Part shown: piece by piece, positions 1,210 to 39,076 of the stretch | How positions within the stretch are numbered: the first letter of the stretch is position 1 | Layout of the letters: each line of letters starts with the position of its first letter | Translations under genes and position numbers: made by a program | Notes under the pieces: model-generated | The model's input: only the letters and a program-made list of their open reading frames with translations | What the model was told of the DNA's origin: nothing | Databases searched by the model: none | From: a virus | Taxonomy: Duplodnaviria > Caudoviricetes | Length of the DNA: 41,415 nt | Strand: one strand, 5' to 3' | IMG/VR virus record: IMGVR_UViG_3300007643_000005 | Span: 1-41,415 of that record

Positions 1210-1689
1210 ATGACAAAGAACGACGCAGTAAAAATTCTCAACCTCACCGGCGAAATTAACCAGGCAGCAATCAAAAAAGCATACCAAGCAGCCAGCTCAA
1301 AGTTCCATCCAGATCGCAACCCGGCAGGTTTGGAAATGATGAAGCTTGTTAACCAGGCTTTTGAATTTTTAAAAAATGAGCAGGATTTCATCGTAGAAAA
1401 TGATACAAACTACGACGAAAAATTAAATGACGCAATTAACGCAGCGATGACAATGGAAGGTGTAGTGATTGAAATTTGCGGATTGTGGATATGGCTATCA
1501 GGTGATACAAGACCACACAAAGAAGCCATTAAAGAAGCCGGTTACAAATGGGCAAGTAAGAAAAGAATGTGGTACTTCCGCCCAGCAGATTACAAAAGTA
1601 GCTCAAGAGGTAAATTAAACATGGATGAGATAAGAGAAAAACACGGTAGCAAGGTGCTAAACAAGAAGGAAGCCAAGAAGATCAAGTAA
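1210..1689 (+). CDS. J-domain (DnaJ-like) protein with small Trp-rich C-terminal domain
   Basis: IKKAY...FHPDRNP...MKLVNQAFEFL J-domain with intact HPD; C-terminal GLWIWLSGDT...GYKWASKKRMWY; GGAG RBS. Confidence 0.88.
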   Translation: MTKNDAVKILNLTGEINQAAIKKAYQAASSKFHPDRNPAGLEMMKLVNQAFEFLKNEQDFIVENDTNYDEKLNDAINAAMTMEGVVIEICGLWIWLSGDTRPHKEAIKEAGYKWASKKRMWYFRPADYKSSSRGKLNMDEIREKHGSKVLNKKEAKKIK

Positions 1690-3934: not shown

Positions 3935-4360
3935 CTAGACTCTGCTAATTGATGCAGTTTTCTCGATGACCGGAGCAATCCCTGCGCCGAAAGGCAAAGG
4001 TGTTGTTAGTACGCCAGAATCCAATATTTTTCCGGATCCGGTTTGCGCCAATCCGATCGCGGCATATGTCGCATTACCGCTGCCACCTGTTCCGGTAGGA
4101 AACAGGATATCTTCTACAGGGCTAACACTGTTTGCAGTGACGACCCATCCACTAGCGTCTCTGGTAACCTCGACACGGGCATAACCTGGATAAGCAACCT
4201 CGCTTGTTGCCTGATTACCCGCATTGGGGTCTGCTGTATGCAAGGATAAGTAAAGACTGGTGGCAGGACTTGATGCCGCATTATCTGCGATACCAGGTAT
4301 CGGTTGACCGTTATAAATCAAACCAAGTATGTCGTTTCTGAAAGTTGCGCCAATTGACAT
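3935..4360 (-). CDS. Phage tail-fibre-associated protein
   Basis: LYLSLHTADP...EVAYPGYARVEV motif common in siphophage minor tail proteins. Confidence 0.75.
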   Translation of the reverse strand: MSIGATFRNDILGLIYNGQPIPGIADNAASSPATSLYLSLHTADPNAGNQATSEVAYPGYARVEVTRDASGWVVTANSVSPVEDILFPTGTGGSGNATYAAIGLAQTGSGKILDSGVLTTPLPFGAGIAPVIEKTASISRV

Positions 4361-4373
4361 TTATTACTCCTCA

Positions 4374-5594
4374 TTAAGTTGACATTAAAATCTTCTGGTC
4401 GGCTACGGACATTAAAATTGCTTGGTCTGCCACAGACATTGAAATAGTTATCGTCGATATAGGCAGAGAAACGCCATCCAAACTAAACAACGTACTACCA
4501 ATACCATTCAAATAAAAACTTGAAACCGCATGTGACACACCTACAAACGACTCAACACCTAAGCCATAAGCATTAAATGCTGATTTCGATAAACTCGTCG
4601 AATTGAATACAGATAAACCCTGGCCACTTATAGACAATGAGGACGAAACATTAGATGTTGCGCTAAATATCGCATCGCCAACACCGGTTGCAACAAACCT
4701 GTTTCCCCCGATCGCATGACTGTCGAATACCGCATATCCGGAGCCGGCAAATCCAAATGATCCGATTACTGATGCTTTAGAAACAAAAGTATTTTCGCTT
4801 GCACCAAAAAGCGAGAATAAAGATAAACCCTTTGATCTGGCTTCAAATGCAGAATGACCAGCACCAGAGAATGAATATGAGCTTATAACAAATGCTTTTA
4901 CGTCAAAATCATCTGCACCAACACCAGAAAACGCGAATGATGAAACCGGGTCAACTGTATATAGACCAGATCCAGCAAACGAAAAAGAACTTAAACTAAA
5001 CGCTTTTGCATCAAAATTATCTAGGCCAGCACCAGATAATGAAAATGACCTTATGCCAAGTGCTTTTGCATCAAAATTATCTGCACTAACACCAGAAAAC
5101 GCGAATGATGAAACCGGGTCAACTGTATATAGACCAGATCCAGCAAACGAAAAAGAACTTAAACTAAACGCTTTTGTATCAAAATTAACCGGTCCAGTAC
5201 CAGAGAATGAAAACGACCTAATACCAAGAACTTTCGCATCAAGATTGCCTGCGCCAATACCAGAAAACGCGAATGATGAGACGGGATCAAACGTATATAA
5301 ACCAGATCCAGCAAACGAAAAAGAACTTACACCAAATGCTTTTGCGTCAAAATCATCCAGTCCAGCACCAGAAAGCGCAAAGGAGGATAACCCGATTGAT
5401 CTGGAATCAAATGACGCCGTACCCATTCCCTCTGCAGCAAATGCAGACAAAGGAATCCCGGCCCGACGCCTTCTCACACCATAGCCATTAGCGGCAGAAA
5501 CCCTGACGCTTCCGGACGGCATAACAGGAGGATTAACCACTATAGGGTTCGTGGTTCTCCTTACGCCAAAACCCAGCGCGCTTGTTACTTTCAT
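4374..5594 (-). CDS. Ser/Phe/Gly-rich repetitive fibre-like protein
   Basis: ~19-aa SSFxFxGxG units nested within 56-aa repeats. Confidence 0.65.
   Translation of the reverse strand: MKVTSALGFGVRRTTNPIVVNPPVMPSGSVRVSAANGYGVRRRRAGIPLSAFAAEGMGTASFDSRSIGLSSFALSGAGLDDFDAKAFGVSSFSFAGSGLYTFDPVSSFAFSGIGAGNLDAKVLGIRSFSFSGTGPVNFDTKAFSLSSFSFAGSGLYTVDPVSSFAFSGVSADNFDAKALGIRSFSLSGAGLDNFDAKAFSLSSFSFAGSGLYTVDPVSSFAFSGVGADDFDVKAFVISSYSFSGAGHSAFEARSKGLSLFSLFGASENTFVSKASVIGSFGFAGSGYAVFDSHAIGGNRFVATGVGDAIFSATSNVSSSLSISGQGLSVFNSTSLSKSAFNAYGLGVESFVGVSHAVSSFYLNGIGSTLFSLDGVSLPISTITISMSVADQAILMSVADQKILMST
4900..5375. repeat. Intragenic tandem repeat, 168-bp period, about 3 copies
   Basis: (A/T)ACCAGAAAACGCGAATGATGA...CCAGATCCAGCAAACGAAAAAGAACTTA recurs at ~4921, ~5089 and ~5257. 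Confidence 0.9.
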
Positions 5595-5596
5595 TT

Positions 5597-6634
5597 CTAG
5601 ATAATTACAAAATAATCATTCTCGGCAGGCGCAACGGATAACCCTGGCACGGTAAAGACCGGATTAACAGCGCCTGTGCTTGCTGTTATTTCAACGGACA
5701 CGTTCTTCAATTCGGGGGTTGTTGTGCCTTTTGGAAACTTTATCCATTGGCCTTTAAACTGATCTGGATTACCTGCTACACCAGGCGGATTACACGAAGA
5801 AGTAACAATTGTCGTCTGGTTAGATCCGACACCAACAATACATTTTGTATTTCCATCTACTGCCTGAGCAAATCTACTGTTAGTATCTGCACTGCCTGCT
5901 ATTTCACGTTGATCCGACATCATGTTACCGCCTAAGCTCAGTTCAGCAGGAATCCTTTTTCTAATATCTTGTATAGATAAATGATTAACGCCTTCATCAT
6001 CAAAACCAAACACTGACAAACCATCCGTCCAGCTATCATCAGTTAGCTGTAATTTACCGGTTGTCACTTGTATTTTCAGCTTGTTAAAGTGTTGGGGGAA
6101 TATATCCCCAGCTATTCCTATTTGGGTTATCCATCCAGCAGGAATAATCGGCAATGGAATAATCCCAGAAGAAGGCACTGTCAGAGTGTTACCAACTGTT
6201 ATTTTTGGCCGGAATATTTCTAACCGAAGAGTTATCTCCCTAAGTGATGCATGAGTTATTCTGAACAGCTTTGACTCAACATCTTTCCCTGATGAAAGAC
6301 CCATGTCTTGATTACATAGCAAAGCATAGGTTCCAGGAAATAATGGGTCTTCGGTAATTATTGGGGTTGTCATAGCGGCAGCAGCTGCAGAGCCTTTTTT
6401 CTGTGCCACCGTAAAATCTGTTAATCCTGTTAGAAGTCTGCTGTTGTCAGATGGGTCAACTGCGTTAAAGTGAACTGACTCGGTGATGACGCCGCTTGGT
6501 ATTCGCACGCCTGTTTGCTGGATGAGTAGATCCACACCCCCGGAAGTGCCTGTGACTGGCGGCACAACAACCGGTGTGGTTGTAGCGCTCTCACCGAAGG
6601 GGACCTCTCCAAAAATATTTTCGCCAAATGACAT
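5597..6634 (-). CDS. Putative minor tail / structural protein
   Basis: N-terminal FGENIFGEVPFG motif; beta-rich; tail operon position. Confidence 0.6.
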   Translation of the reverse strand: MSFGENIFGEVPFGESATTTPVVVPPVTGTSGGVDLLIQQTGVRIPSGVITESVHFNAVDPSDNSRLLTGLTDFTVAQKKGSAAAAAMTTPIITEDPLFPGTYALLCNQDMGLSSGKDVESKLFRITHASLREITLRLEIFRPKITVGNTLTVPSSGIIPLPIIPAGWITQIGIAGDIFPQHFNKLKIQVTTGKLQLTDDSWTDGLSVFGFDDEGVNHLSIQDIRKRIPAELSLGGNMMSDQREIAGSADTNSRFAQAVDGNTKCIVGVGSNQTTIVTSSCNPPGVAGNPDQFKGQWIKFPKGTTTPELKNVSVEITASTGAVNPVFTVPGLSVAPAENDYFVII

Positions 6635-6635
6635 A

Positions 6636-7490
6636 TTAGTTCATCCAAATAGATAGACCAGATACATTTTCGAGCCAAGTTTCGGCGCTTTGATCGACAG
6701 CAAATGGTGCATATGGTATGTCCCGATAGAGGGACGTATTGACCGTTACTCCCGAAGCCGCTGTACCTAAGAACAAACTAGGATTAACCGATGGGGCTTT
6801 GAAAGAAACACCACCTGCAGAACAATGAGCCAATATGCACAATAGGCCAGAAGGGACATATATTGGACTAGATGGTGTCATAATCTTATTCCCAGTACTT
6901 GAACAGTCGACGGTTGCGGCATTTGTAAATTCGCCTATTATTCTTCCCGGTTTACCGTTTATATGCTTTTCAAATACCCCAATTCGAGCAACTACCCCTG
7001 CCGCCGAAACACCAACATTAACTCCCGCAGTGGTCACAAATCCTGATTTTGGTCTCCAAATAGGGATCATATTTAAGAAAGTTCCCATTGCAGCATTTGC
7101 GCCAAACTCGTTCCCCGACATATTCCCAGAGAATCCGGTAATTCCACTGGCTGGGAATGGGTCTCCGTTAAACGCCTCAACCACGCTCTCAGCATCTGGA
7201 ACCATTTGTAGAACAGCCGCCCCTGTTATGGTAAGACCTGGAGGAGAATTTCGATTTAATGTTCCTGCAACTAAAGTTTGCTCAACTCTATCTGGAACGA
7301 ATTCAGTATTAGATGTCAGATGGCCAATACCAACTTCTTTATTAAGAGCATTAATAATTATGTATTTAAAAGTTACATTTAACGGCATACCAGCTCCAAC
7401 TAGGGAGGAATGGCCATCGGTACCCCCTGCTAGAGTAATAACACCCCCACTCCGACCGCTAATACTTTCTTCGATCCAATTTAATTGCAT
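6636..7490 (-). CDS. Putative tail fibre protein
   Basis: N-terminus (ITLAGG...EVGIG) resembles fibre anchoring domains; Gly-rich beta C-terminus. Confidence 0.6.
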   Translation of the reverse strand: MQLNWIEESISGRSGGVITLAGGTDGHSSLVGAGMPLNVTFKYIIINALNKEVGIGHLTSNTEFVPDRVEQTLVAGTLNRNSPPGLTITGAAVLQMVPDAESVVEAFNGDPFPASGITGFSGNMSGNEFGANAAMGTFLNMIPIWRPKSGFVTTAGVNVGVSAAGVVARIGVFEKHINGKPGRIIGEFTNAATVDCSSTGNKIMTPSSPIYVPSGLLCILAHCSAGGVSFKAPSVNPSLFLGTAASGVTVNTSLYRDIPYAPFAVDQSAETWLENVSGLSIWMN

Positions 7491-7499
7491 TACTTTCTC

Positions 7500-10400
7500 C
7501 TATTGAACTGTGACTGTTTTTCTTGCAACCGTGAATACGCCGTCTTCGTCAACAACCTGCACCTTGATCTTGCATGAGCATGGCTGGGTGTACGTGTGAG
7601 TTACTTCGTTATTGAAAGTACCGTCTCCCCAGTCAACCGATGTAAGCTGTATAGTGTCGTCTCCTGGATCTGTAACAGCTATTGATATGCTGTATAAAGC
7701 ATCAACTGCAACAGTGTCAGCGCCGGTAATAGTTCCGCGTGGATTTACATTTAAAGTAGTGAGCTGGAATGATCCCGAATCGACATCACCTGCAACGTCG
7801 GTCATGTCTACACTGACAGTCATGACCGCATCTCCATCGGGCATTAACCTGCTTATGTCGAATGAAGATAATCCTGCAGCAACATTCAGATTTTCTATCG
7901 TTCCGCCCCAGTCAACTACAACCGTCCATCCGTCTCCGCCCGTGTCCGTCCCGTCTGTAAATGAAACAGTTCTGGTAAAAGTGGTCCCTTCATTGACTAT
8001 AGCGTCACCACCCGTACTGATTGTTAAATCACCTGGGCCTCCAACACTGTCAACAGTGATAGTGAATGATCCGTTAGCTGTTTCACCTACATCATCTGTG
8101 ATCGTTACGGTTACCGGGAATGGTCCGGCTGATGACATTAATCTGGAAATATTGAATGAAGATAAACCGGCCGCAACAGATCCGTTTTCAGTTGTTCCGT
8201 TCCAATCTATGGAATAAGTCCAGCCGTCTGCATTGGTGTCTTCACCGTCTGAGAATGTAATTGTTCTTGAGAAAGTATCGCCAACGTTTACTGTTGCGCT
8301 ACCACCAACATTAATCACAACCTGTGAAGGGGTTCCGGCACCGCCACCCGCAGCTAGTAGGAAACCAGCGTCAAATGAAATATCTCTAGTATTGCCTGAT
8401 ATGTCACTAACAGAAGCTTCTACAATCTGATTAACGTCGCTAATAGGCGTACCGAGATTGAATGTTGTGATCCCATGCAATTGCGCTGCAGGAGCAATAT
8501 TTGTACAAGTACCGCCATTTCTTAAGCATACGTTCAAAGTACCAACATCAATCCCACTACCCAAATCAACAGTGCCTATATTGAATCCTGTGATTGTATT
8601 ACCAGCGCCGCCGTCTATGATTGCAGACATAACCAAGGTAGGTTTGTGAGTATCGGTTAAATAATCGGTACCAGATCCAGCAGGAGCACCAATATTTATC
8701 CATCTTGCTATGGTTTTTATTTCTTCTGCTGTAACCGTAGTTGCTGGATGAACAGAACCGAAATCTATGTCTGTTGCGTGGTCAGTATCCAGCCTGTTGT
8801 CAGTTCTTGAACCAACTAATTTCCAATAGAGCAGGCTCCCTCTAGCATTATTCAACTTGATGTACCGCGTCAGTTGCGGCCTTACAAAATAATTCGAAGA
8901 ATTTCCATTTTCTATATTTTTCCTAAGCGCTGATGGTACGTAAATCTGTCCGTTATCCTCTACCAACCTATAATGAGTAGATCCAGTCTTGGAAGGTAAA
9001 CCAGTTGGACCAACTGAGAAATCGTCAAGCACCAAACCTGCTTCAAGTCGTGGAGACGATCCGGCCCCTGGAGAGCCGCCTGTTGCATGACAGGTTACAC
9101 ATCTTGACTCTAGAATAGGCCTGATATCCCGAGTAAACTCAGGAACGTAATCGTATCCTACAAAATTATCTATTTGTATATCACCATTTACATCTAGACC
9201 AGCGAGCATTGGAACATTGCCTTTTCCTAACTGAGTATGCACAAATCCAGGAGTAGCAGCATGTGATTGTGAAAACTGCACTAATGGTGGGCGGGAATGT
9301 ACATGACATCCTCCGCAAGTCTTAAGCTCCTTAGGTTTTAAGGACTGCCACGCTTGATCCCTATTCAATGCATTGCCATCACAATCAATACCGCTCATTG
9401 TGTAAGCAATATTGGCTGGCATCTCTATCAAAAAACTAGTATCTTCGTTGCCATTAATATCTAATATAGGATCGCCGTTCACATCTTTGTTTCTTGTGTA
9501 TACCTGACCTAAAAATGTCTGTCTCTCCCCTAAAGGAGTTATGATATTTTCTCCTATGTTCCCAATCTCATTAGGATGTATAGCTATTATTTCTACCCCA
9601 CAAATTTCATCATCAGTATAGTCAAATGCATCAGTTCCAAACATATTATGAATGTCTGAGTGTCCAAAATCAGTTGGATCAATCATTATTCCAGCTGGGT
9701 GTCTCGTTTCTCTGTCAACTACTGAAGCAGCGCCTAACATCCCAAATGGAGAACCTTTAGGTATAGCGTCACTGGTTGGCGTAACTAATACTGCTGGTTG
9801 TGATATTCCGTATATATCTGTGTAAGGCACTGCAGCACGTGGGTATATTTCGTGCCAGTCTCTGCTATCAGCCATTAATACTAAATCTGCTGGTGTGGTC
9901 GATGGATTAACTGTTGTTCTGTATATACCTAAATTACATCCCGGTATATCGCCATCCAGACCTCTTGAAATCATTTCATCACTTAATTCTGTGACTAAGT
10001 AAGGCGTGACACCGTTACCATTTCCGGTAGTTAAGAATGGCGCAGACATACCAAGTGCAGTCCATACTTCATGAAAACCTATTATCGAGCAGCTACCTAC
10101 ACCCCAAACTATCCCCAAACCATTACTAGGCAACGCAAACGGAAACCCAGCCTTTCCATACCACGGCATAATTCCAGTATAATTCGCGTGAGTTAGTGCT
10201 GTTGGAACATCTGGGAAAGTTGGCACAATATGCGCTGCATTGTCACGCATAGTTCCCCATGTACTAAGCTTAGAAACGACATTTGGCAGAAAGAAATCGT
10301 TCTTATCAGTAACCACGGGAACTCTTCCTTCCTGTCCTTCAGGTTCCCTCTGAAAACAAAAAACACTGCCTAACGCATTATTGTTTTGCCTGTAGTAATC

Positions 10401-11438
10401 ACCTGTGCAAATATTTCCGTCAGTCTTTTGAGTTATATTATGTAAAGCTACAAACAGATCTCCAGTTGCACCCAGTGAACCTGTTCTGTTGTGTTGCCCA
10501 AATATAGGAAATTGCAATGTTCCATCAGACCTCATATCCCACAACGAAAAGAAATTATGAGTTGTACCAAAACCTAGTGACTGAGAATTTCCTTTAGAGA
10601 AAAGAAAGCTATTGCTTGTCATCCATGTAGAGAAAGCAAGCTTACCATCCATGGTTTGATATGGATGCTGTACCTGTGACAGATCATGATGGCCAATTAA
10701 TTCAATATTTCCACCGTCCTCATCCATTAGATGCATAGCCATCACAGGATCGGTGCTGATTCCAGAGTCATGAAAAATTAAATTACGGAATGCACCCGTT
10801 CTGGTCGAAGTGAAAGCTATCTTATTCTGTATACCTGTAGTAGTAGAGACATAAGCAGGCCCGGAATCATAAACACCAGCTCCTGGAGAAGTAAGGTCAG
10901 AACTAACGCCGCTTGCTATGTTGACAGTCCTAAGCTTAGATCCTGTTGTATGTATTCGCTTGTTATTAGTAAATATAAACCCTGTAGTATCACTTGTGAC
11001 ATCAACAGAGTTGTTAAGCATATAGTGAGCAAAAGGGTGTTGCAGGTTGTGCAATGTTCCTTCAAATAATGCGTAAGTGACAGTCAATCCATCGAATGAT
11101 ACAGCTGCATCTAAGGCCGCACATGTTGTTCCACCAACTACACTTCCAGTAGTAGAGCAATCATGCAATACTGTCTCTACTCCAGCTGCATCTTTACGCA
11201 TCAGATCACATGGAGCGGTGAAGTCAGTGAGAGAATTCCTAACGTCTGGAACTTGGTCGAGAACGTCCATACCTCTGAACGTATAACTAGAACTTACTGG
11301 AACACCGCCGACTATCACGTCATCCGTAACGGTAAAATCTTGAGTAGTAGCAGCACACCTAGAATAAACAATAGGCGTTTCTGCGAAAATCGGAGCTGAA
11401 ACTATTAGCAGTAGAAGTAATGAGGCAAAACGAATCAT
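7500..11438 (-). CDS. Exported diheme c-type cytochrome, hydrazine synthase alpha-like, with C-terminal PKD/Ig repeats
   Basis: Signal peptide MIRFASLLLLLIVSAPIFA (ATG 11438); TolB-like KIAFTSTR; DTSFLIEMPAN...LKPKELKTCGGCH (9303-9317); EFTRDIRPILESRCVTCH (9087-9101); IARWINIGAP; DWNG/DWGG/VDWGDG repeats. Confidence 0.8.
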   Translation of the reverse strand: MIRFASLLLLLIVSAPIFAETPIVYSRCAATTQDFTVTDDVIVGGVPVSSSYTFRGMDVLDQVPDVRNSLTDFTAPCDLMRKDAAGVETVLHDCSTTGSVVGGTTCAALDAAVSFDGLTVTYALFEGTLHNLQHPFAHYMLNNSVDVTSDTTGFIFTNNKRIHTTGSKLRTVNIASGVSSDLTSPGAGVYDSGPAYVSTTTGIQNKIAFTSTRTGAFRNLIFHDSGISTDPVMAMHLMDEDGGNIELIGHHDLSQVQHPYQTMDGKLAFSTWMTSNSFLFSKGNSQSLGFGTTHNFFSLWDMRSDGTLQFPIFGQHNRTGSLGATGDLFVALHNITQKTDGNICTGDYYRQNNNALGSVFCFQREPEGQEGRVPVVTDKNDFFLPNVVSKLSTWGTMRDNAAHIVPTFPDVPTALTHANYTGIMPWYGKAGFPFALPSNGLGIVWGVGSCSIIGFHEVWTALGMSAPFLTTGNGNGVTPYLVTELSDEMISRGLDGDIPGCNLGIYRTTVNPSTTPADLVLMADSRDWHEIYPRAAVPYTDIYGISQPAVLVTPTSDAIPKGSPFGMLGAASVVDRETRHPAGIMIDPTDFGHSDIHNMFGTDAFDYTDDEICGVEIIAIHPNEIGNIGENIITPLGERQTFLGQVYTRNKDVNGDPILDINGNEDTSFLIEMPANIAYTMSGIDCDGNALNRDQAWQSLKPKELKTCGGCHVHSRPPLVQFSQSHAATPGFVHTQLGKGNVPMLAGLDVNGDIQIDNFVGYDYVPEFTRDIRPILESRCVTCHATGGSPGAGSSPRLEAGLVLDDFSVGPTGLPSKTGSTHYRLVEDNGQIYVPSALRKNIENGNSSNYFVRPQLTRYIKLNNARGSLLYWKLVGSRTDNRLDTDHATDIDFGSVHPATTVTAEEIKTIARWINIGAPAGSGTDYLTDTHKPTLVMSAIIDGGAGNTITGFNIGTVDLGSGIDVGTLNVCLRNGGTCTNIAPAAQLHGITTFNLGTPISDVNQIVEASVSDISGNTRDISFDAGFLLAAGGGAGTPSQVVINVGGSATVNVGDTFSRTITFSDGEDTNADGWTYSIDWNGTTENGSVAAGLSSFNISRLMSSAGPFPVTVTITDDVGETANGSFTITVDSVGGPGDLTISTGGDAIVNEGTTFTRTVSFTDGTDTGGDGWTVVVDWGGTIENLNVAAGLSSFDISRLMPDGDAVMTVSVDMTDVAGDVDSGSFQLTTLNVNPRGTITGADTVAVDALYSISIAVTDPGDDTIQLTSVDWGDGTFNNEVTHTYTQPCSCKIKVQVVDEDGVFTVARKTVTVQ

Positions 11439-11540
11439 ATCTTTATGGCCTTTAATATGTGATTGCATTTAATGCTGTTATTGAAGTTGCTGCACTTGCT
11501 AAAGCTATTTGTAATCAGGTTTTCGTTAGATGCGAAACCT

Positions 11541-11972
11541 CTAACCTTCATCCCTTGCCGCCTTTACATCTTTAATCGTCACGTCTCTTTTATAATTCCG
11601 ATCTGCCCAGCTTTCCATAATGACCCCCAAAGCTAAGATTCCTGCTTTGTGTTCCGCCTGAAATTCTGGAATAAGCGTGTCAGAAACCAGATCATCAAGA
11701 ACATTGGATAACGCCACCTCGTTTTCTGAAATACGAATATCAAAACGTTCAAAAAACTCCAGCCCATCAACCGCCATTTCCGCAGCAACTGATGAACCTT
11801 TTTTGACAGAGATCCAACAGTTCTTCAAAAACATGTATCGTTTTATTTCGTATGACTCAATGGGCTGCTTCCCCGTTATATTTTTATTGTTGAGTGCAAT
11901 GACAATTTCCTCGTCAGTATCACCAGCGTGATCAGCAGTAATCTTGGCTTGCAGCACCGCATAATCTGTCAT
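11541..11972 (-). CDS. Hypothetical phage tail-region protein
   Basis: ATGA overlap with the upstream tail gene. Confidence 0.6.
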   Translation of the reverse strand: MTDYAVLQAKITADHAGDTDEEIVIALNNKNITGKQPIESYEIKRYMFLKNCWISVKKGSSVAAEMAVDGLEFFERFDIRISENEVALSNVLDDLVSDTLIPEFQAEHKAGILALGVIMESWADRNYKRDVTIKDVKAARDEG

Positions 11973-13312
11973 TCTGTAAGTCCCTCAATCTCTATGGAAA
12001 CCAAGGATTCATTTTCATAGGGAATCTCAATACTGAAATCAGCAAAGAAACCAAAAACCATCGTTAATGAAATGGTGCCGGCGCCAATGTACACAATTGG
12101 CTTTGCCCTAAATCCAGTGAGTTTGACAAACAAAACCGCAAGATCAGAATTTTGTACGATTGTTATTAACTGAATTGTTTTACTGAAATCACGCTCAAGA
12201 ATGTCGTAATTACCAAAATCATCACGGTCTTTAACGCTGAAATCCTGCATATCCAACTTAAGGCCATATTCCGTATCGCCATAGGACAACAACTTACCCA
12301 TCACGCATGAGCCGCAAAATACCGTCTCACCGATCGCCGTTAATGTAATCTCAATATCAACATCCGAATAAGCGCTGGGCAGATCATTAAACAGAACACT
12401 ATCAGAACGCTCTGTCTTGCCTGTGATTGCACTATGGGCTTCAGTGGTTTTGGTGGTATCGTAAACAACTGTTGATCCGGCGTTTTCAGTAACCTTAACG
12501 CGCACAGTCACGGCATTAATCTTGAAGAATGCAATCGAATCGGTAACTGTCTTCAGGGTGTAGGTATTAGCAATTGAATCGAGATTACTGGTCTGCGTAG
12601 TCACCTTGCTATCATGCATTCGCCATCTATTTGTCGCACCCACACGCGACCAATGTTCCTTGTCTGTATATGGCGCACGGCAGAATATGGTTGCACCAGA
12701 TCCTTGGCTGATACTGACTATGTAAGTCCCTGTGCCTCCACTGCCGTTGCCGAATGAAACGATACGTGTGCCAGCAACAATCCCTGATCCACTGACTATC
12801 ATTCCAACAGCGAGAACACCAGAAGCTACCCCGGTGACACTCATCACTGTGCCACTTACCGTGGCAGTTGCTTGCGCTGATTCCAGCTTGGCTTCATACA
12901 CACTGTGAACAGTTGCGATTGCTGTATGGGTACCTGACTGTGATCCACCTGTATTAATCGGTGTTCCACCTGGTTCGAGCGCCAGTTTGAATGTATCAAA
13001 ATCAGAATCAACAACATAGTAAACTTGATCAGCTACTATGCCGGTCGGCAATGCGCCGGTTGTTGTGAATTGAACTGCAGTATCATCTACCAATAAATGG
13101 TTGACCCATGAAACAACGCATGGCGTTGCTATGGATAAGGTAACAGTGTTTGTTACGCTGGTTACCTGCCGGCGATCCCCAACCGATACAGATTCAGTAA
13201 CACTGAATTCTGTATATTCTGATTCAGTTACATTACTACTAACCAAATGATGATCAGAAACAACAAAAGGCGCTTTACCTGTAGCAAATACTGCGGGATC
13301 AATTAACTCCAT
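11969..13312 (-). CDS. Post-tape-measure tail protein with inserted beta domains
   Basis: TAATG coupling to the TMP stop gives a start at 13312; W..VGATNRWRM.D and DFS.KDRDDFGN motifs. Confidence 0.75.
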   Translation of the reverse strand: MELIDPAVFATGKAPFVVSDHHLVSSNVTESEYTEFSVTESVSVGDRRQVTSVTNTVTLSIATPCVVSWVNHLLVDDTAVQFTTTGALPTGIVADQVYYVVDSDFDTFKLALEPGGTPINTGGSQSGTHTAIATVHSVYEAKLESAQATATVSGTVMSVTGVASGVLAVGMIVSGSGIVAGTRIVSFGNGSGGTGTYIVSISQGSGATIFCRAPYTDKEHWSRVGATNRWRMHDSKVTTQTSNLDSIANTYTLKTVTDSIAFFKINAVTVRVKVTENAGSTVVYDTTKTTEAHSAITGKTERSDSVLFNDLPSAYSDVDIEITLTAIGETVFCGSCVMGKLLSYGDTEYGLKLDMQDFSVKDRDDFGNYDILERDFSKTIQLITIVQNSDLAVLFVKLTGFRAKPIVYIGAGTISLTMVFGFFADFSIEIPYENESLVSIEIEGLTE

Positions 13313-16300
13313 TATGCCGCCCTCTCTTTCGGCATACCTACCTTTTCCCACTTGTCCAAAGTTTTCTTAACTTTGTTATTGCTGACTGTTGATGTTTCTG
13401 TCGCTTTCAATACTTTGCTCATCAATCCAACAAGCTCTTTACGTTCAGCTCTCTCATTATCAACAAAAGCTTTCGGCTTAACTTGCTCGCCTTTATGAGC
13501 AAATACAGGCATGTCGCGCGGTATGAAATTTGTACCAACCCTAAGTCTTGGCAGGTCGTTTTCATCCGCGAATTGATTGATCTGGTCAACTGTGAACGGG
13601 CTATTAGCAGCTAATTGCAGGCCCGTAACATTATTATCACGCGCAGCATTATAAATAGTTAACGGATCATCATTCGCCGCTAAGAAATCTTGTATCTGTG
13701 CGCCAGTGATATTAGGGTTACCGTTGAATGGTGTTGAACCACCCAGACCGGCGACCGTTGAACCGCCTGACCCTGCAATTCTCGTGTTGAAATTACCTAA
13801 CGCATCATTAACGCTAAGATTAGATAATTTACTATCAATTCCGTTGAGCGCATCAAGCTGCAACTGTGCATTAGAAATAATCGAGTCAAGCCGCCCTATT
13901 TCAGTATTGAACCCTATCGTCAATGCATCCAGGCTTTGTTCCTGGGCGGTCAGTTGGTCATCTGTAATACCGCCCAACTGATCCAATAATGAGGTGTTTT
14001 CTTCTTGGCTGCGCACAAACTCTTCACGGGTACGAAACGCGCTTGTGTCGTTTTTTGATAAAACAGCAAGAGAAGTCCTGACACTATTCAAATCAACAAC
14101 ATTGCCACTTCTGGACTGGGCTATCGCACCTCTTAAATTATTTTTTGCTTGATCCAAACCTAACGGATTAATGGCCTCAGTCGTTGATTTCAACGCACTT
14201 GATAAACTGGTTAATTTCCCGATTGAATCATTTACTTCTTTGATTGAATCGTTGTATTGATTAGTCAGTTTGTTGCGCTCCGCATCTACGCTTTGTTGCA
14301 ACCCTGAGAATGAATCGTTCACGCCAATTAATTGGCTATCTTTAAACGCCTGCGCAGCATCAATTGAATCCTGCTTTACTTGCTCTGCGGTATCAATTGA
14401 GGCTTGACTTACTTGCTCTGCAGCGTCTTTAACAATGAGAAATGACCCAGCCACATCGAATAATTTATTTGCAGATTCAGCGCCTTGCTCACCCAAGAAT
14501 ATAAATGACTTAAGAAGATCACCAAATTCACCCTTGGAAATCGACTCGGCTGTTTCACCAAATTCTGACAGGGTTTTATTGACAGCCTGCGAAGCAAGAT
14601 CTACTTTTTCTGCATCAGTCAGGAAATTATTTGCAAAGAATTGTGTTTTTTGGCTTACGGCATCAATGCCGCCTAACGAATCGATTAAAGCTGTTCTAGT
14701 TTCAAATGAAAATCCGCTAATGAGACTTGACGAATCCTGCAGAGACAGACCAAAAACATTCCCAGCATTGGTCAAAGTCGTCATCTCACCACTTAACCTA
14801 CTTAATGTATTAGCGTAAGTCTCGCTGCCCCTGGTCAATTCGGAAATATTTGGTAACACACTCTCAGCAATAGAATCACTAAGTCGCGCCATTTCAGCAG
14901 CAATCTGCTCTTGACTAATGGCTTTTTTCTTTTCTGACTGAATAGCAACATTGAACGTAAGATTATCAAGTGCTTGCGCATCAAGATTCAGATTCTCTGC
15001 TAATGCTCGAGTAGAGCCAAAGAATGCTTTTATTGAATCATCGAACAGACCCAATATTTCATCAGCATTTGCCGCGTCTTGCTGGCTATGTTTATTGCCG
15101 CGCAATAGACCGCCTTTGCTGCGGAACACGTCTGTAACAAACGAGCCCCCAAAACCACTTTCTGAAGCGTTACCACCAAGAAACTGCTGTCTAAATTTGG
15201 ATTCCCCGCGCCCAAAAATACCTGTCAATATTCCGCCGAAATCTGGCAGGAATTTTCCGATCACAGGAATTTGACTCAAAGGATTAATAATTTTATTTAA
15301 CGTGCTTCCTGTAACCCCTGCTATTTTATTGTCGTTAGCTATTAGGTCATTAAATCCTTTTGTTAATAAAGCAGCACCTAAAACCAGCCCCCCGGAAGCA
15401 AGCGACAATCCACCGGTAGCACCAAGACCAGAACCACCAATAGCAGTTCCAGGCCCACCAATAAACGCCGTCCCAGCGCCACCAGTGCCGGATGCAAACA
15501 CTGATCCACCTAGAAAAGACCTTGCGCTTGCTAATCCTCCTAGTAAACTTGATCCAACGTTAGCCAGATCAAACGAACCAGAAGCACCTGATGCCGCAGC
15601 AGATCCAGAAGCAAACAGCGATCCAATCCCGATACTTCGAGCCAGTCCTAATGCTGCAAATTCAGACCCAATACGTCCAGCCGTAGAAATGGCATTTCTC
15701 AGCATTCCTTTGAGTCCATCATCAAAGAAATTGAATATGCTATTTGCTAAGGCTGATTGGATGTTACGGCCAGATTGTATCCACAACTGATCCATCTGGC
15801 TTGTTGTAGATCGAGTAACGTTTGCAATCTCTTCCGTTTTCTCAATAACACCCGACGTGGCATCAATGTATTCATTGATTGCTTTAGTCGATTCCGCGTT
15901 AAATATATTCTCTGGTAAACCAGCTTCACGTTTTTCAAGCAATCGTGCAAGCCTCTCATTTCTCTCAATCAGCGGATCATAAGCACGGGTTAGTTTTTCT
16001 ATATCCCGTTTTAATGATTCTGCTTCACGTTCTTGTCCTTGCTCTGCCTTAGTTAAAGTGTTTGCGCTGCGCGATGTTTTGGTGAATTGCTTATCTATAT
16101 CAGCCAGAGTTTGAGCGAATGTTTTAACTGCAGACGATGCTTTTTCACTTTCCCCGGTTATATCCTCAATCTCATCAGTGGTTTGTGAAATACCCTTGCT
16201 TACATCTTCTATCTGACTACGGTTTGCAATCAACGCACCAATCGGCCCCAGTGATGCCAACCCAACTGTTTTGGCAAGCGAACCAAGCCCAACCAATACA

Positions 16301-17109
16301 CCCTGCAAGATGCCACCTTGCTCGGCGGCTTCTGCCATTTCTGTGGCGACTTCTGATAAAGAACTAACCAACCCGATGGTTAATTGCTGCGCCAATACGC
16401 CGGACGATCTGCCAAGCCTATCCAGATTGTCGTTAAAAACTTCTGCACGCGCTGCCGATTCTGCCGTGACTGGGTTGTATTTTTGCCCTTCAGTCACCAA
16501 ATCACGTAGCCGATCAGACCCACCTGATAGCAACGGCACCAAATCGGCCATCCGGTCACCAAGCAGTGAAGTGACGGCAACTGCACGATCTTGCTCACCC
16601 AAATCCTGAACAGCATCAGCTAAAGCAAAAAACTGTTCTTCCGGGGTCTTGGATTTCAAATCCTCCAGGTCAATACCTAGTGCCCTGAGGATTTCTGAAT
16701 TTTTATTGAGCGCACCGGATGAATCAGCGACGATACGCGAGAATGAGCGCACACCCTTCGCAGTTGTTTCAAGGCTTGTGCCTGATTGTGATGCAGCAAA
16801 ATCAAGCCCAGCAAGTGTCTCAACAGCAAGCCCAGTTTTCTGAGAAAGCTTTCCTATTTCATCCTGAAAATCAATAATGCCTTTAATTTTGCCAAAGCCT
16901 TGATTGATCCCAACCAGTGACGCAATAACACCAGCCGCACCCAAAGCCATACTTTTAAATGCTTGCTTGGCTGCACGCTCCGCACGGTCAAATTGCCGCT
17001 GTGAATTTTGGGCGAACTTCAGCGCTGATTGGTCCGTTTTGCTTAAGCCTTGCGTGTATTCCGCATGGTTTAAAGCGAGTTTAACGACCAGTGAGCCTAA
17101 CGCTGACAT
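13312..17109 (-). CDS. Tail tape measure protein
   Basis: 1265 aa, helical and Ala/Gly-rich; MSALGSLVVKL start; follows the tail chaperones. Confidence 0.93.
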   Translation of the reverse strand: MSALGSLVVKLALNHAEYTQGLSKTDQSALKFAQNSQRQFDRAERAAKQAFKSMALGAAGVIASLVGINQGFGKIKGIIDFQDEIGKLSQKTGLAVETLAGLDFAASQSGTSLETTAKGVRSFSRIVADSSGALNKNSEILRALGIDLEDLKSKTPEEQFFALADAVQDLGEQDRAVAVTSLLGDRMADLVPLLSGGSDRLRDLVTEGQKYNPVTAESAARAEVFNDNLDRLGRSSGVLAQQLTIGLVSSLSEVATEMAEAAEQGGILQGVLVGLGSLAKTVGLASLGPIGALIANRSQIEDVSKGISQTTDEIEDITGESEKASSAVKTFAQTLADIDKQFTKTSRSANTLTKAEQGQEREAESLKRDIEKLTRAYDPLIERNERLARLLEKREAGLPENIFNAESTKAINEYIDATSGVIEKTEEIANVTRSTTSQMDQLWIQSGRNIQSALANSIFNFFDDGLKGMLRNAISTAGRIGSEFAALGLARSIGIGSLFASGSAAASGASGSFDLANVGSSLLGGLASARSFLGGSVFASGTGGAGTAFIGGPGTAIGGSGLGATGGLSLASGGLVLGAALLTKGFNDLIANDNKIAGVTGSTLNKIINPLSQIPVIGKFLPDFGGILTGIFGRGESKFRQQFLGGNASESGFGGSFVTDVFRSKGGLLRGNKHSQQDAANADEILGLFDDSIKAFFGSTRALAENLNLDAQALDNLTFNVAIQSEKKKAISQEQIAAEMARLSDSIAESVLPNISELTRGSETYANTLSRLSGEMTTLTNAGNVFGLSLQDSSSLISGFSFETRTALIDSLGGIDAVSQKTQFFANNFLTDAEKVDLASQAVNKTLSEFGETAESISKGEFGDLLKSFIFLGEQGAESANKLFDVAGSFLIVKDAAEQVSQASIDTAEQVKQDSIDAAQAFKDSQLIGVNDSFSGLQQSVDAERNKLTNQYNDSIKEVNDSIGKLTSLSSALKSTTEAINPLGLDQAKNNLRGAIAQSRSGNVVDLNSVRTSLAVLSKNDTSAFRTREEFVRSQEENTSLLDQLGGITDDQLTAQEQSLDALTIGFNTEIGRLDSIISNAQLQLDALNGIDSKLSNLSVNDALGNFNTRIAGSGGSTVAGLGGSTPFNGNPNITGAQIQDFLAANDDPLTIYNAARDNNVTGLQLAANSPFTVDQINQFADENDLPRLRVGTNFIPRDMPVFAHKGEQVKPKAFVDNERAERKELVGLMSKVLKATETSTVSNNKVKKTLDKWEKVGMPKERAA

Positions 17110-33251: not shown

Positions 33252-33929
33252 TTATCTAGCACCAAGCCTACGACGATTGACCGCTATCATACCTGTTAAG
33301 CCTATACCAAGTAAAAGAAATACAGTCGGCTCGGGTATTTGCGCAAAAACATCGCCGCCTTGCATTGCTAAAATACGAAGTTCAGCTTCTGGAGGCCATA
33401 AAAATGCTGTTTGATAAGCATCAAATTGAGATTGGCGCAAACCGTTTGGGGCACCAAGAGAAAAGCCAATTCCGAGTGGACCTGTAGGAAAAGGGCCTGG
33501 ACAAGGAAAGCCACTGCAAACAAGCGGAGAGCCAACTGACCAATATAATTGATTGCCACCAAAAGCATCAAGAAAAGAAGGTGCTTGTACTAATTCGTCA
33601 ATTAGAAAATCTACTTCCGAACTAAAGCCGTTAAACCATCGGCTGGTTTCATCGGTAGCATCCCACCCCGTAACGCCAGCAACATTCAAATTGGTCAGCC
33701 AATCAACGGTATTAGCATAAGTAACCCGGCCGTCATTATTAGATATTCCGTTATCGAAAGCATTAGGACTGGCTGCGCTAGAATCTGCCAACCAGGTAAT
33801 ATTCCGCTCTACGTCGTATACAGCCTTACCGCCTAATCTAAGTTCCAATGTGGCATTTGCTGTTGTGGTCATAAAAATTGCAATAACCCCAACGCCGAGT
33901 AATTCTTTTACATTCTTTATATATTTCAC
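33252..33929 (-). CDS. PEP-CTERM sorting-domain exported protein
   Basis: Signal peptide (..ANA-T); LELRLGG.AVYD..NITWLAD; C-terminal IPEPT + TM + RRR. Confidence 0.92.
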   Translation of the reverse strand: MKYIKNVKELLGVGVIAIFMTTTANATLELRLGGKAVYDVERNITWLADSSAASPNAFDNGISNNDGRVTYANTVDWLTNLNVAGVTGWDATDETSRWFNGFSSEVDFLIDELVQAPSFLDAFGGNQLYWSVGSPLVCSGFPCPGPFPTGPLGIGFSLGAPNGLRQSQFDAYQTAFLWPPEAELRILAMQGGDVFAQIPEPTVFLLLGIGLTGMIAVNRRRLGAR

Positions 33930-37399: not shown

Positions 37400-37419
37400 G
37401 ATTCCTCTTCTGGGCACCA
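37400..37419 (+). mobile_element. Right att core: tRNA (Leu-like) 3'-end copy
   Basis: GATTCCTCTTCTGGGCACCA resembles part of a T-arm plus acceptor strand and CCA; TACGGAA direct repeats upstream (37347-37364) are candidate arm sites. Confidence 0.75.
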
Positions 37420-38865
37420 TCTTCATATACTACTGTTATTATTGAATTATTTTTATCTTTTTTTGAGGCAAGATTGGGAGTGATTCAATAACCATTTGAA
37501 ATTCAATATAATTCTGATTCTAGTCCTGTTACCCCTCTTTTCTCACTTCTTTTTTTAAGTGTACCAAGAAGGCAAGATTCCTTTAAAATCAACAGGCTAA
37601 AAATTGTATGTATGCTAACACCCAAAACTTTTTCAAGGAAAAAGCTTTAAACTAGACGAACGTGGCAGTGTAAAATTTGGCCGTGAATTAAATGCCTTAT
37701 AATGAAGCATTATACAAATATATTGCTTTCTGTGAAGGATAGTTTTTATGGAAAAGCCAACACCATTTATCAGCTACGCAAGAGAAGATATTGATTGGGC
37801 CAGGAAAATAGCCTCTTCACTTAAAAAGATTGGTGCACAACCATGGATTGACGAGGAAGAACTCCTTCCTGGGCAAGACTGGAAGTCACATATTTTAAGG
37901 GCTCTGAAATCCTGCTCACATGTAATTGTTCTAATATCCAAGAACTCCGTAAATAAACGTGGATTTGTACAAAAGGAGGTAAAAAAATCTCTAGAACTTC
38001 TAGATGAATTCCCTCCAGATTCTATTTTTCTTTTGCCTGTTCGTTTAGACAAATCTGAGCCAAAGTATCTATCGCTAAGCAAATTAAATTGGATAGATAT
38101 TTATGATGAATATGATAGGGCTCTAACAAAAATTGCTGCGGCTATGGGATTAATATACCAAAAGGAAACAATAAGTATTAATTGGAAACGAAATACTAAG
38201 AGCTGGAGCTCGTATGAGTGGATGCCTGTTATAGAAGATAGAATTTTACATTTACTGACCAACAAAGAAATTACTCGGCGCTTACGGTTCAGTGAGTTGG
38301 ATTTTTATTTTTATCCAAATGGTAAAATTCAAAGCGCTAGACTAAAGGACAGTCAAGATATTTATGGCATGAGTTTTGATATGGGTGACACAATATACTT
38401 TGATGAGGACGGTCGGATTGTTGGTGTTCATGCTTATCGTGGTGGTGATTAATTTTATGGAATACATACTTACGGCATGTCTAACTAATAAAGATAGATA
38501 ATCTCACAATCTGGATCGGTAATCCCGGCTTTACTAATTAATTCTTGATTTAAATCTACAATATCAAATCACGTGAGAGACCCACATTACACATCTGGAG
38601 AAGGTTCAGGCAGTAGTCCAGTCAACGAAACAGATGCAGGAGATTCATTAAAACTCCCCTTGAGATTCTTATTCCATTCCTCTAAAACACTGAATAATTG
38701 GTTCAAGGTCTCTCCTTGGAGGCGCACCATCTTATACAGTCTTGTTTTCATTGCATTATTTTATCTGCTTTTGGAAAAAGAAAAGGAGTGACGCGACAAC
38801 CCATTGAAATTCAATAGAATTCTGGCTCTAGTCCTACCAACCCTCTTATCTCACTTCTTTTTTTG
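37414..38865 (+). repeat. ~145-bp degenerate direct repeats flanking the TIR gene
   Basis: 37414-37557 vs 38724-38865: both begin GCACCATCTT and share TTGAAATTCAATA.AATTCTG..TCTAGTCCT and CTCACTTCTTTTTTT. Confidence 0.85.
37748..38452 (+). CDS. TIR-domain protein
   Basis: FISYARED, WIDEEELLPGQDW, SKNSV..RGFVQKE (catalytic Glu position), LLPVRLD. Confidence 0.92.
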   Translation: MEKPTPFISYAREDIDWARKIASSLKKIGAQPWIDEEELLPGQDWKSHILRALKSCSHVIVLISKNSVNKRGFVQKEVKKSLELLDEFPPDSIFLLPVRLDKSEPKYLSLSKLNWIDIYDEYDRALTKIAAAMGLIYQKETISINWKRNTKSWSSYEWMPVIEDRILHLLTNKEITRRLRFSELDFYFYPNGKIQSARLKDSQDIYGMSFDMGDTIYFDEDGRIVGVHAYRGGD

Positions 38866-39076
38866 GTTGTAGTCTAATCGTTTCACCAGCAAATCAGCTT
38901 CCAATATTTTCAAGTATCAGTACCTATCCTATAAGAAACTAAGCAGTAATATAAAAACCAAGCTGATAAATCTGGGTGCTATTTTCTGAAAAAACTTGCA
39001 AAATTGCAATACTGATTGGCTCGTCACAAAAAATGTCTCAAAAAAATCTTAATACTCAATGCGGTAATATTTCCGT

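What the first reader, a model, noticed from the sequence alone, without database searches (positions are those of the whole stretch)
7500..11438. Exported diheme hydrazine-synthase-alpha-like protein embedded in a phage tail operon
Seen: a 1312-aa ORF with an N-terminal signal peptide, propeller-like repeats, two CxxCH motifs (CGGCH, CVTCH) and three C-terminal PKD/Ig-like units. It is co-oriented with tail genes and only 9 bp from the next fibre-like gene. Knowledge: the segment before CGGCH resembles the HZS-alpha middle domain; the DIRPIL..RCVTCH...WI..GA segment resembles planctomycete-type cytochrome c; heme c attachment occurs in the periplasm. Inference: this sits where a receptor-binding gene would be, yet should be exported rather than assembled in the cytoplasm. 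It may be a redox-active lysogenic-conversion gene, or a captured host surface protein reused as a virion appendage. Hydrazine synthesis is not claimed, since no beta/gamma subunits are present.
Basis: partly seen in the sequence, partly recalled or inferred. Interest (0 to 1): 0.88.

Follow-up and report, generated by a model that had tools for sequence, protein, structure and literature searches.

The report
Phage-encoded exported two-haem protein
A bacterial virus carries, among its tail-fibre genes, a gene for a protein with a predicted export signal and two haem-binding motifs that is predicted to fold like one subunit of the anammox enzyme hydrazine synthase; related genes are kept in many unrelated phages, so it likely does a still unknown redox job outside the infected cell, possibly on the virus particle.

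Summary
Observation confirmed. ORF 7500-11438(-), 1312 aa, lies in the late operon of a temperate HK97-like provirus. It is a full-length relative of hydrazine synthase alpha (PDB 5C2V: profile E 3.6e-25; model Z 31) plus four Ig/PKD domains. It is not hydrazine synthase: Tyr591 is replaced by Arg, no beta/gamma genes lie in the window, NCBIfam score 27 against cut-off 800. It is no one-off: 24 other distinct phage loci carry the family, 18 of them in late structural/lysis blocks; two repeat the window's gene order. Phage copies are polyphyletic (AU test rejects one clade), under purifying selection (dN/dS 0.07-0.17), and nearly all keep a signal-peptide-like leader and haem motifs. Chromosomal copies are secreted or surface-anchored orphans. 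Best reading (0.45): late-expressed cargo, exported and haem-loaded in the periplasm, released at lysis to act on an extracellular substrate. Rival (0.30): it docks on the virion at lysis. Lysogen-expressed moron 0.20. Function and location are untested. The scan's earlier notes already mention this family in phages (e1-5282882) and leader-bearing tail fibres on other DNA; I found nothing in print on phage-borne HzsA-like genes in my searches.

The parts
7500..11438 (-). HzsA-like exported two-haem protein, 1312 aa
11382..11438 (-). predicted Sec signal peptide, residues 1-19 (heuristic; 32-84% identical in 10 close homologues)
9819..11381 (-). TolB-like beta-propeller region, residues 20-540, with near-invariant H258, H316, H333, Y348, Y349, H529, E530 and conserved Cys
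9159..9818 (-). HZS-alpha middle domain, residues 541-760
9297..9317 (-). haem site I, CGGCHVH (C708, C711, H712, H714); Arg716 stands where HzsA has Tyr591
8649..9158 (-). haem alpha-II-type cytochrome c domain, CVTCH (780-784) and H897 aligned to HzsA His772
8343..8663 (-). Ig-like beta-sandwich, residues 926-1032
7503..8333 (-). three PKD-like units, residues 1036-1312 (predicted stalk)
11452..11514 (-). 3' remnant (20 codons ending NAITY-stop) of the DUF4376-type gene that precedes the homologue in L035/L037
11541..11972 (-). 143-aa unknown late gene upstream
   Evidence: no family hit
6636..7490 (-). 284-aa leaderless fibre-like gene, next in operon; 34-36% identical neighbour in L035/L037
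5597..6634 (-). 345-aa leaderless gene of a family common in phage fibre blocks
4374..5594 (-). 406-aa repeat protein (168-nt repeats); probable rope of a chain-like fibre (inferred)
3935..4360 (-). GP4 gp80-like chain-fibre subunit
   Evidence: PF23140 E 1.2e-13; 8jou_a E 1e-4

Best explanation
This prophage gene encodes a full-length HzsA-fold protein with two CxxCH motifs that is likely made with the late genes, likely exported by Sec and haem-loaded in the host periplasm, and would be released at lysis (or secreted shortly before) to act as a redox enzyme on an extracellular substrate, most likely a cell-surface or matrix polymer. Shown: sequence, family, predicted fold, operon position, repeated presence in phages, purifying selection. 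Inferred from established biology: c-type haem attachment and disulfide formation happen outside the cytoplasm, so the working form cannot be built with the virion in the cytoplasm. Inferred, untested: late timing, release route, enzyme activity and substrate. Proposed chemistry: the propeller, with its invariant His/Tyr/Glu, binds substrate beside haem I (CxxCHxH, no Tyr ligand), haem II (H784/H897) relays electrons, and the Ig/PKD stalk tethers the protein to a surface.
For: Fold and family. Export features kept: 23 of 25 phage-context copies with an N-terminus score >=2.4 on my leader heuristic (L129 2.0, L116 none); both CxxCH in 112 of 114 homologues found without a motif filter; 10 Cys besides the four haem-motif Cys kept in 10-12 of 12 close relatives. 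Selection: dN/dS 0.07 (L035/L037), 0.13 and 0.17 (L100 against L104, L103), similar to neighbouring structural genes (0.03-0.13). Late operon: co-oriented, stop codon overlapping the next Shine-Dalgarno in window, L035 and L037; promoter- and terminator-like sites not above shuffles (21 vs 26.9; 11 vs 8.9); 18 of 24 other phage loci in late structural or lysis blocks by my reading of ORF lists. Free cargo rather than a fixed virion part: position varies (after tail genes, after lysis genes, between terminase and portal, among early genes); no extra domain is shared by all clades; only 3 of 62 phage loci with the 345-aa-type gene have it nearby. Substrate hints: Lipase_3 genes in L100 and L111, a sulfatase in L126, a Peptidase_S9 fusion in P0147; MYXO-CTERM anchor in a cellular copy; Colwelliaceae copies beside polysaccharide genes (read by eye).
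Against: No expression, localisation or activity data. Six of 24 loci are not in late structural blocks, so late timing is not universal. The benefit to the phage of a free enzyme released at lysis is not obvious. Four phage copies (L115, L116, L117, L126) keep only haem site I. The window phage has no esterase or sulfatase neighbour. Distances between conserved residues and haems were not measured in the model. The bias towards fibre blocks is equally expected under the virion-docking rival.
Confidence: 0.45

Rival explanations
1. The protein is a virion appendage matured in the periplasm: it is exported, haem-loaded, and docks through its Ig/PKD stalk on the tail or chain-like fibre when the inner membrane fails at lysis, then serves as an adhesin or a surface-degrading enzyme at infection.
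For: It sits between a tail-fibre-assembly-type gene (DUF4376, whole in L035, remnant in the window) and a GP4-like fibre block. In clades only about 27% identical it again precedes 345-type, gp80-like or gp77-like genes (L100, L101, L103, L104, L105). Among the nine close relatives with a PKD tail the tail (60-79% identity) is more conserved than the propeller (44-53%), the anchor-plus-variable-head pattern of receptor-binding proteins; PKD-region dN/dS 0.03. The phage has a separate PEP-CTERM moron elsewhere (33252-33929), yet this gene is in the structural operon. Another phage (L195) has three leader-bearing ORFs in the same slot.
Against: All neighbouring fibre genes in the window are leaderless. 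The PKD tail occurs with different downstream genes (L001 lysis genes, L130 a spanin-like gene) and is absent from other clades. 59 of 62 loci with the 345-type gene have no HzsA-like gene within the stretch fetched. No convincing viral structural match in BFVD (best E 4.5e-6, TM 0.17). No leaderless copy fused to a known virion anchor turned up among the 12 long or unusual homologues scanned with Pfam.
Confidence: 0.3
2. It is a lysogenic-conversion gene: expressed from the quiet prophage, it adds a periplasmic or surface redox protein to the host, as lambda lom does from inside the tail region (lom is recalled, not from a call).
For: The phage is temperate (integrase, repressor, att-like tRNA 3' end). 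Chromosomal homologues are host envelope proteins, several per genome in Nitrosomonas. Three phage loci place it among early genes (L004, L124, L128). Secreted phage proteins with leaders are published for sponge-symbiont phages (bioRxiv 10.1101/608950, passages read).
Against: No promoter above chance upstream and no terminator after it; the upstream spacer is mostly a gene remnant; the downstream fibre gene is coupled to it, so lysogen expression would read into structural genes. GC and GC3 match the phage's structural genes. The scan covers sigma-70-type promoters only.
Confidence: 0.2
3. It is a recently captured, non-functional passenger or an assembly artefact.
For: Most homologues with known context in the genome collection are chromosomal (60 of 64 loci show no match to the window's phage genes). 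No match among 50,697 deposited phage genomes.
Against: Intact in phage relatives at 42-57% identity with the same junctions; dN/dS well below 1; 25 IMG/VR contigs carry the family; short contigs identical to the window inside the gene and both neighbours occur in run X1.
Confidence: 0.03

Closest known systems
Hydrazine synthase alpha subunit HzsA (Kuenenia stuttgartiensis, PDB 5C2V chain A; NCBIfam NF052339)
   Same: Propeller, middle haem domain and C-terminal haem domain in the same order; model Z 31.0, rmsd 3.4 over 615 residues, 18% identity; both CxxCH and the His772 equivalent kept; leader for export.
   Different: Tyr591 replaced by Arg, with a conserved His two residues after the motif; no beta or gamma genes in the window; extra Ig/PKD stalk; NCBIfam 27 bits against cut-off 800; encoded by a phage.
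Non-anammox 'HZS_alpha domain' proteins (PF18582; Hagglund et al. 2025, PMC12758564; abstract, passages and section 8 read)
   Same: Same uncharacterised fold family, lacking the Tyr591 ligand; the paper reports no functionally characterised top hits.
   Different: The paper's clades lie next to fused beta-gamma homologues and lack His772; this subfamily is orphan, keeps the His772 equivalent, and is found in Nitrosomonas, Myxococcota, Colwelliaceae and phages. The paper's main text has 0 occurrences of 'phage'; its supplements were not read.
Exported phage cargo: Ankyphage ANKp (bioRxiv 10.1101/608950, passages read); Q-controlled Stx2 genes (PMC5120812, passages read); lambda Lom and T5 Llp/Cor (recalled)
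   Same: Leader-bearing proteins encoded by phages, some inside late or tail regions.
   Different: None is a haem protein or a 140-kDa multi-domain redox-type protein; this one needs the host's cytochrome c maturation.
GP4/A1002/VP1 chain-like tail fibres (PMC13730344, passages read; PF23140, PF23148)
   Same: The block downstream holds a gp80-like subunit and a repeat protein that may be the rope.
   Different: In the passages read no exported or haem-bearing component is described; the HzsA-like gene is optional to the block.

Membership tests
Hydrazine synthase alpha subunit (HzsA) | Propeller + middle haem domain + C-terminal haem domain fold | tested here: met
Hydrazine synthase alpha subunit (HzsA) | Tyr591 proximal ligand of haem alpha-I (four residues after the CxxCH His) | tested here: not met
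   Arg716 here; Tyr in 0 of 114 homologues (definition)
Hydrazine synthase alpha subunit (HzsA) | Zinc site His587/Cys303 | not tested
   No residue-level superposition was available; Cys303 is not kept in all anammox HzsA either
Hydrazine synthase alpha subunit (HzsA) | Bis-His haem alpha-II (His772) | tested here: met
   H897 aligns with His772; kept in all 114 rows of A2
Hydrazine synthase alpha subunit (HzsA) | hzsB and hzsC adjacent | tested here: not met
   Only other CxxCH among 52 window ORFs translated is an HNH-like ORF; no peroxidase-type Pfam hit in 37 proteins. The host genome is not held.
Hydrazine synthase alpha subunit (HzsA) | NCBIfam NF052339 cut-off 800 | tested here: not met
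   27 bits
HZS_alpha-domain orphan family (PF18582) | PF18582 above gathering score, two CxxCH, leader | tested here: met
   37.5 bits against 26.6
c-type cytochrome | Covalent haem attached after export | not testable with these tools
   Motifs and leader present; haem stain needed
Phage moron (lysogenic conversion gene) | Own promoter and terminator, foreign base composition | tested here: not met
   sigma-70-type consensus scan only
Phage moron (lysogenic conversion gene) | Expressed in the lysogen | not testable with these tools
   Needs RNA or protein from a lysogen
Phage receptor-binding or tail appendage protein | Gene in tail/fibre block | tested here: met
Phage receptor-binding or tail appendage protein | Cytoplasmic, leaderless, with a known virion-anchoring domain | tested here: not met
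   Leader present; no PHROGs hit
Phage receptor-binding or tail appendage protein | Present in the virion | not testable with these tools
   Needs virion proteomics or cryo-EM

The most novel reading that the evidence does not exclude
Tailed phages have repeatedly recruited a host surface haem protein as a virion part that is exported, disulfide-bonded and haem-loaded in the periplasm and joins the particle only at lysis: a c-type cytochrome redox enzyme carried on a phage tail to attack or bind the host's surface polymers.
Probability: 0.3. Interest if true: 0.93.

Novelty: new variant of a known kind. Interest (0 to 1): 0.74.

Why it matters
Phages spend 2.5-4.7 kb of a small genome on this gene, have exchanged it with chromosomes several times and keep it under selection with its export signal and haem motifs. 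That points to a real, undescribed extracellular redox function in phage life cycles. It gives a handle on the uncharacterised family from which anammox hydrazine synthase alpha probably arose. It offers a clean test of whether periplasm-matured proteins join tailed virions, since covalent haem is a built-in marker of passage through the periplasm. It also warns that PF18582 hits on viral contigs should not be counted as anammox auxiliary genes.

Tried and rejected
Single-protein scan of viral contigs found nothing; alignment scans did. No match in INPHARED phages; one weak plasmid match. No PHROGs hit. BFVD gave only generic propeller matches. The protein atlas gave HZS_alpha clusters named 'hypothetical' for homologue P0037, scores 0.75-0.83, leads only. 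No RNA holder listed; this says nothing on expression. Run X1 pieces shown do not bridge either gene border; a joint skipping 4391-11764 in one X1 contig has only 24 letters on its short side and is not used. My by-eye likeness between the leader-bearing 239-aa ORF of L195 and the 345-type C-terminus was not supported by a profile test. The gp80/gp77 profiles were seeded by eye and are circular; only Pfam and direct pairwise hits are counted. Separate capture of the window clade and the L001 clade is not established: holding them together fits as well or better (p-AU 0.74). Host not identified: the flanking FG-GAP protein's N-terminal domain matches 21 of 190 genomes of the Nitrosomonas marina family (best 52%), no other family was searched this way, and its 71-89% matches are unnamed. 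Literature: searches found no report of phage-borne HzsA-like or CxxCH proteins (listings seen; passages read in PMC8115048, PMC9978346, PMC9083009, PMC3556154); search 113 on lom returned nothing; most subscription papers and all supplements were outside what I saw.
Full report
1. The window. It is a virus record holding a temperate HK97-like siphophage: integrase at the left end, terminase, portal, protease, capsid, connectors, tail tube, tape measure, holin, primase, repressor, an excisionase-like ORF, and a tRNA-3'-end-like sequence near 37400-37420 read by eye as the right attachment site, followed by a TIR gene and a host FG-GAP/RTX gene. All genes from 30268 down to 2539 on the minus strand form one run that contains the finding.

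2. The 1312-aa ORF, leader, two CxxCH motifs, PKD units and 9-bp gap are as described. It is the only gene among 23 late genes with a strong leader-like N-terminus by my hydropathy heuristic; SignalP was not available.

3. What the protein is. A profile of 119 homologues matches PDB 5C2V chain A at E 3.6e-25, best in the two haem domains. An AlphaFold2 model of residues 20-1030 (pLDDT 92.5) has 5C2V_A as top Foldseek hit (E 1.7e-23) and Z 31.0 over 615 residues, above TolB propellers at Z 26. It is therefore a full-length HzsA paralogue with four added Ig/PKD domains (model pLDDT 82.5, matching tandem Ig-type proteins such as adhesin repeats). HzsA reads CSGCHYGSY, with His587 on zinc and Tyr591 on the haem iron; this protein reads CGGCHVHSR, and none of 114 aligned homologues has Tyr there. 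H897 aligns with His772. NCBIfam HzsA scores 27 against 800. It is not hydrazine synthase.

4. Cellular relatives. 208 proteins passed in the word-indexed search and 582 in the representative search. The genome collection gave 64 loci: Nitrosomonas (several copies per genome), Myxococcota, Colwelliaceae, Lysobacterales, Nitrospirales. 60 of 64 show no match to the window's phage genes (this does not exclude unrelated prophages). They have leaders, and many end in membrane-sorting tails (MYXO-CTERM by NCBIfam in P0028; others read by eye). No recurrent two-haem neighbour was seen around them (I did not run Pfam on those neighbours).

5. Phage relatives. Two contigs in metagenome bins (L035=L036, L037=L038; 56% identical) repeat the order DUF4376-type gene, HzsA-like gene, 284-aa, 345-aa, repeat protein, small fibre-type gene, gp77-like gene. 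The window keeps a 20-codon remnant of the DUF4376-type gene just upstream, and all three share the stop/Shine-Dalgarno overlap downstream, so the placement is ancestral and not a misassembly. Five alignment scans of viral contigs gave 25 distinct contigs. I dropped L102 and L122 as near-copies of L101 and L003 and L118 as a probable host flank, leaving 22, plus L035 and L037: 24 loci. By my reading of ORF lists, backed in part by Pfam, 18 lie in late structural or lysis blocks, 3 between early genes and lysis/terminase genes (L115-L117), and 3 among early genes (L004, L124, L128). Of the 26 rows, 19 have two CxxCH, 4 only the first, 2 are cut by the contig end and L118 has three; the scan patterns included the first motif, so its conservation there is partly by construction. 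23 of the 25 rows with an N-terminus have a clear leader-like stretch.

6. Repeated exchange and selection. On a 39-row tree (20 phage, 19 chromosomal, chosen by me; L115-L117 and L129 left out as short) the label changes 6 times, at least 5 forced by starred branches, and one phage clade is rejected (p-AU 3e-215); the tree is unrooted, so direction is not shown. Window, L035, L037 and L130 form one group (SH-aLRT 100); joining L001 to it is not rejected. Pairwise dN/dS is 0.07-0.17 where synonymous sites are not saturated.

7. How it likely works. Established biology puts c-type haem attachment and disulfide formation outside the cytoplasm, so the conserved leader, motifs and cysteines mean that the functional form is likely exported. 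Coupling to fibre genes and the lack of its own promoter or terminator suggest late expression. Three fates are open. Free cargo released at lysis (0.45) fits the variable position, the lack of a common docking domain and the optional link to the fibre block (3 of 62 loci, all three already in the query alignment). Docking on the virion (0.30) fits the bias towards fibre blocks and the conserved stalk with variable propeller, but the neighbouring fibre proteins are leaderless and the docking could not be modelled. A lysogen-expressed moron (0.20) fits the temperate lifestyle and the few early-region copies. The substrate is unknown; esterase, lipase and sulfatase neighbours or fusions and polysaccharide loci beside Colwelliaceae copies hint at a surface polymer.

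8. Habitat and host. Short contigs identical to the window, inside the gene and its neighbours, occur at low depth in one run labelled sponge metagenome (one study, possibly not independent of the window's source). The host is not identified; a Nitrosomonadaceae-like host is a lead only.

9. What is known. The HzsA-like family outside anammox bacteria is published as uncharacterised (PMC12758564: abstract, passages, section 8). Three papers that hold both 'hydrazine synthase' and 'auxiliary metabolic gene' mention it only as a pathway label or as absent (passages). Exported phage proteins are known (Lom, Llp and Cor recalled). I found no report of a phage-encoded c-type haem protein of this kind in searches; supplements and most subscription papers were not seen. 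Earlier notes of this scan record the family in phages and, separately, leader-bearing tail fibres; they are unchecked leads and are not counted as support.

10. Verdict. Real, recurrent, selected and unexplained: a new variant of exported phage cargo, from an uncharacterised haem family. Interest 0.74; 0.93 if it proves to be a periplasm-matured virion part (probability 0.30).

Noticed in passing
L195:2021-7028: Three ORFs with leader-like N-termini (812, 641, 239 aa) directly upstream of a 345-type fibre-block gene in a phage with no HzsA-like gene in the stretch fetched.
   Followed up: partly
L002:4334-8069, L003:2493-6158, L121:2565-6210: The HzsA-like gene lies between terminase and portal, flanked by a ~95-aa and a ~140-aa ORF that both have leader-like N-termini; the HzsA-like protein ends in a Pro-rich single strand that could complete the FN3-like neighbour (by eye).
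   Followed up: no
window 4374-5594 and 3935-4360: Repeat protein with 168-nt repeats next to a GP4 gp80-like gene: a probable chain-like fibre on a siphophage.
   Followed up: partly
window 33252-33929: PEP-CTERM protein with a leader inside the prophage early region, a probable moron; the L130 record has one too.
   Followed up: no
window 37451-38871: A TIR-domain gene (37748-38452) between two 113-nt repeats 77% alike that follow tRNA-3'-end-like sequences: a small island beside the prophage's right end.
   Followed up: no
window 11969-17109: No recognisable hub or central-fibre gene follows the tape measure; only a phrog_6278-type 460-aa gene and a 143-aa gene precede the finding.
   Followed up: no
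L115:3405-5396, L117:9902-11902, L126:9688-12273: Phage copies that stop after haem site I or lack site II, as some published HzsA-like clades do; L126 is followed by a leader-bearing sulfatase.
   Followed up: partly
L035-L038: The same two phage contigs are filed in two differently named Alteromonadaceae bins, so the 'Paraglaciecola' label on these proteins is probably a binning artefact.
   Followed up: partly
window 1210-1689: DnaJ-domain protein just inside the prophage's left end.
   Followed up: no
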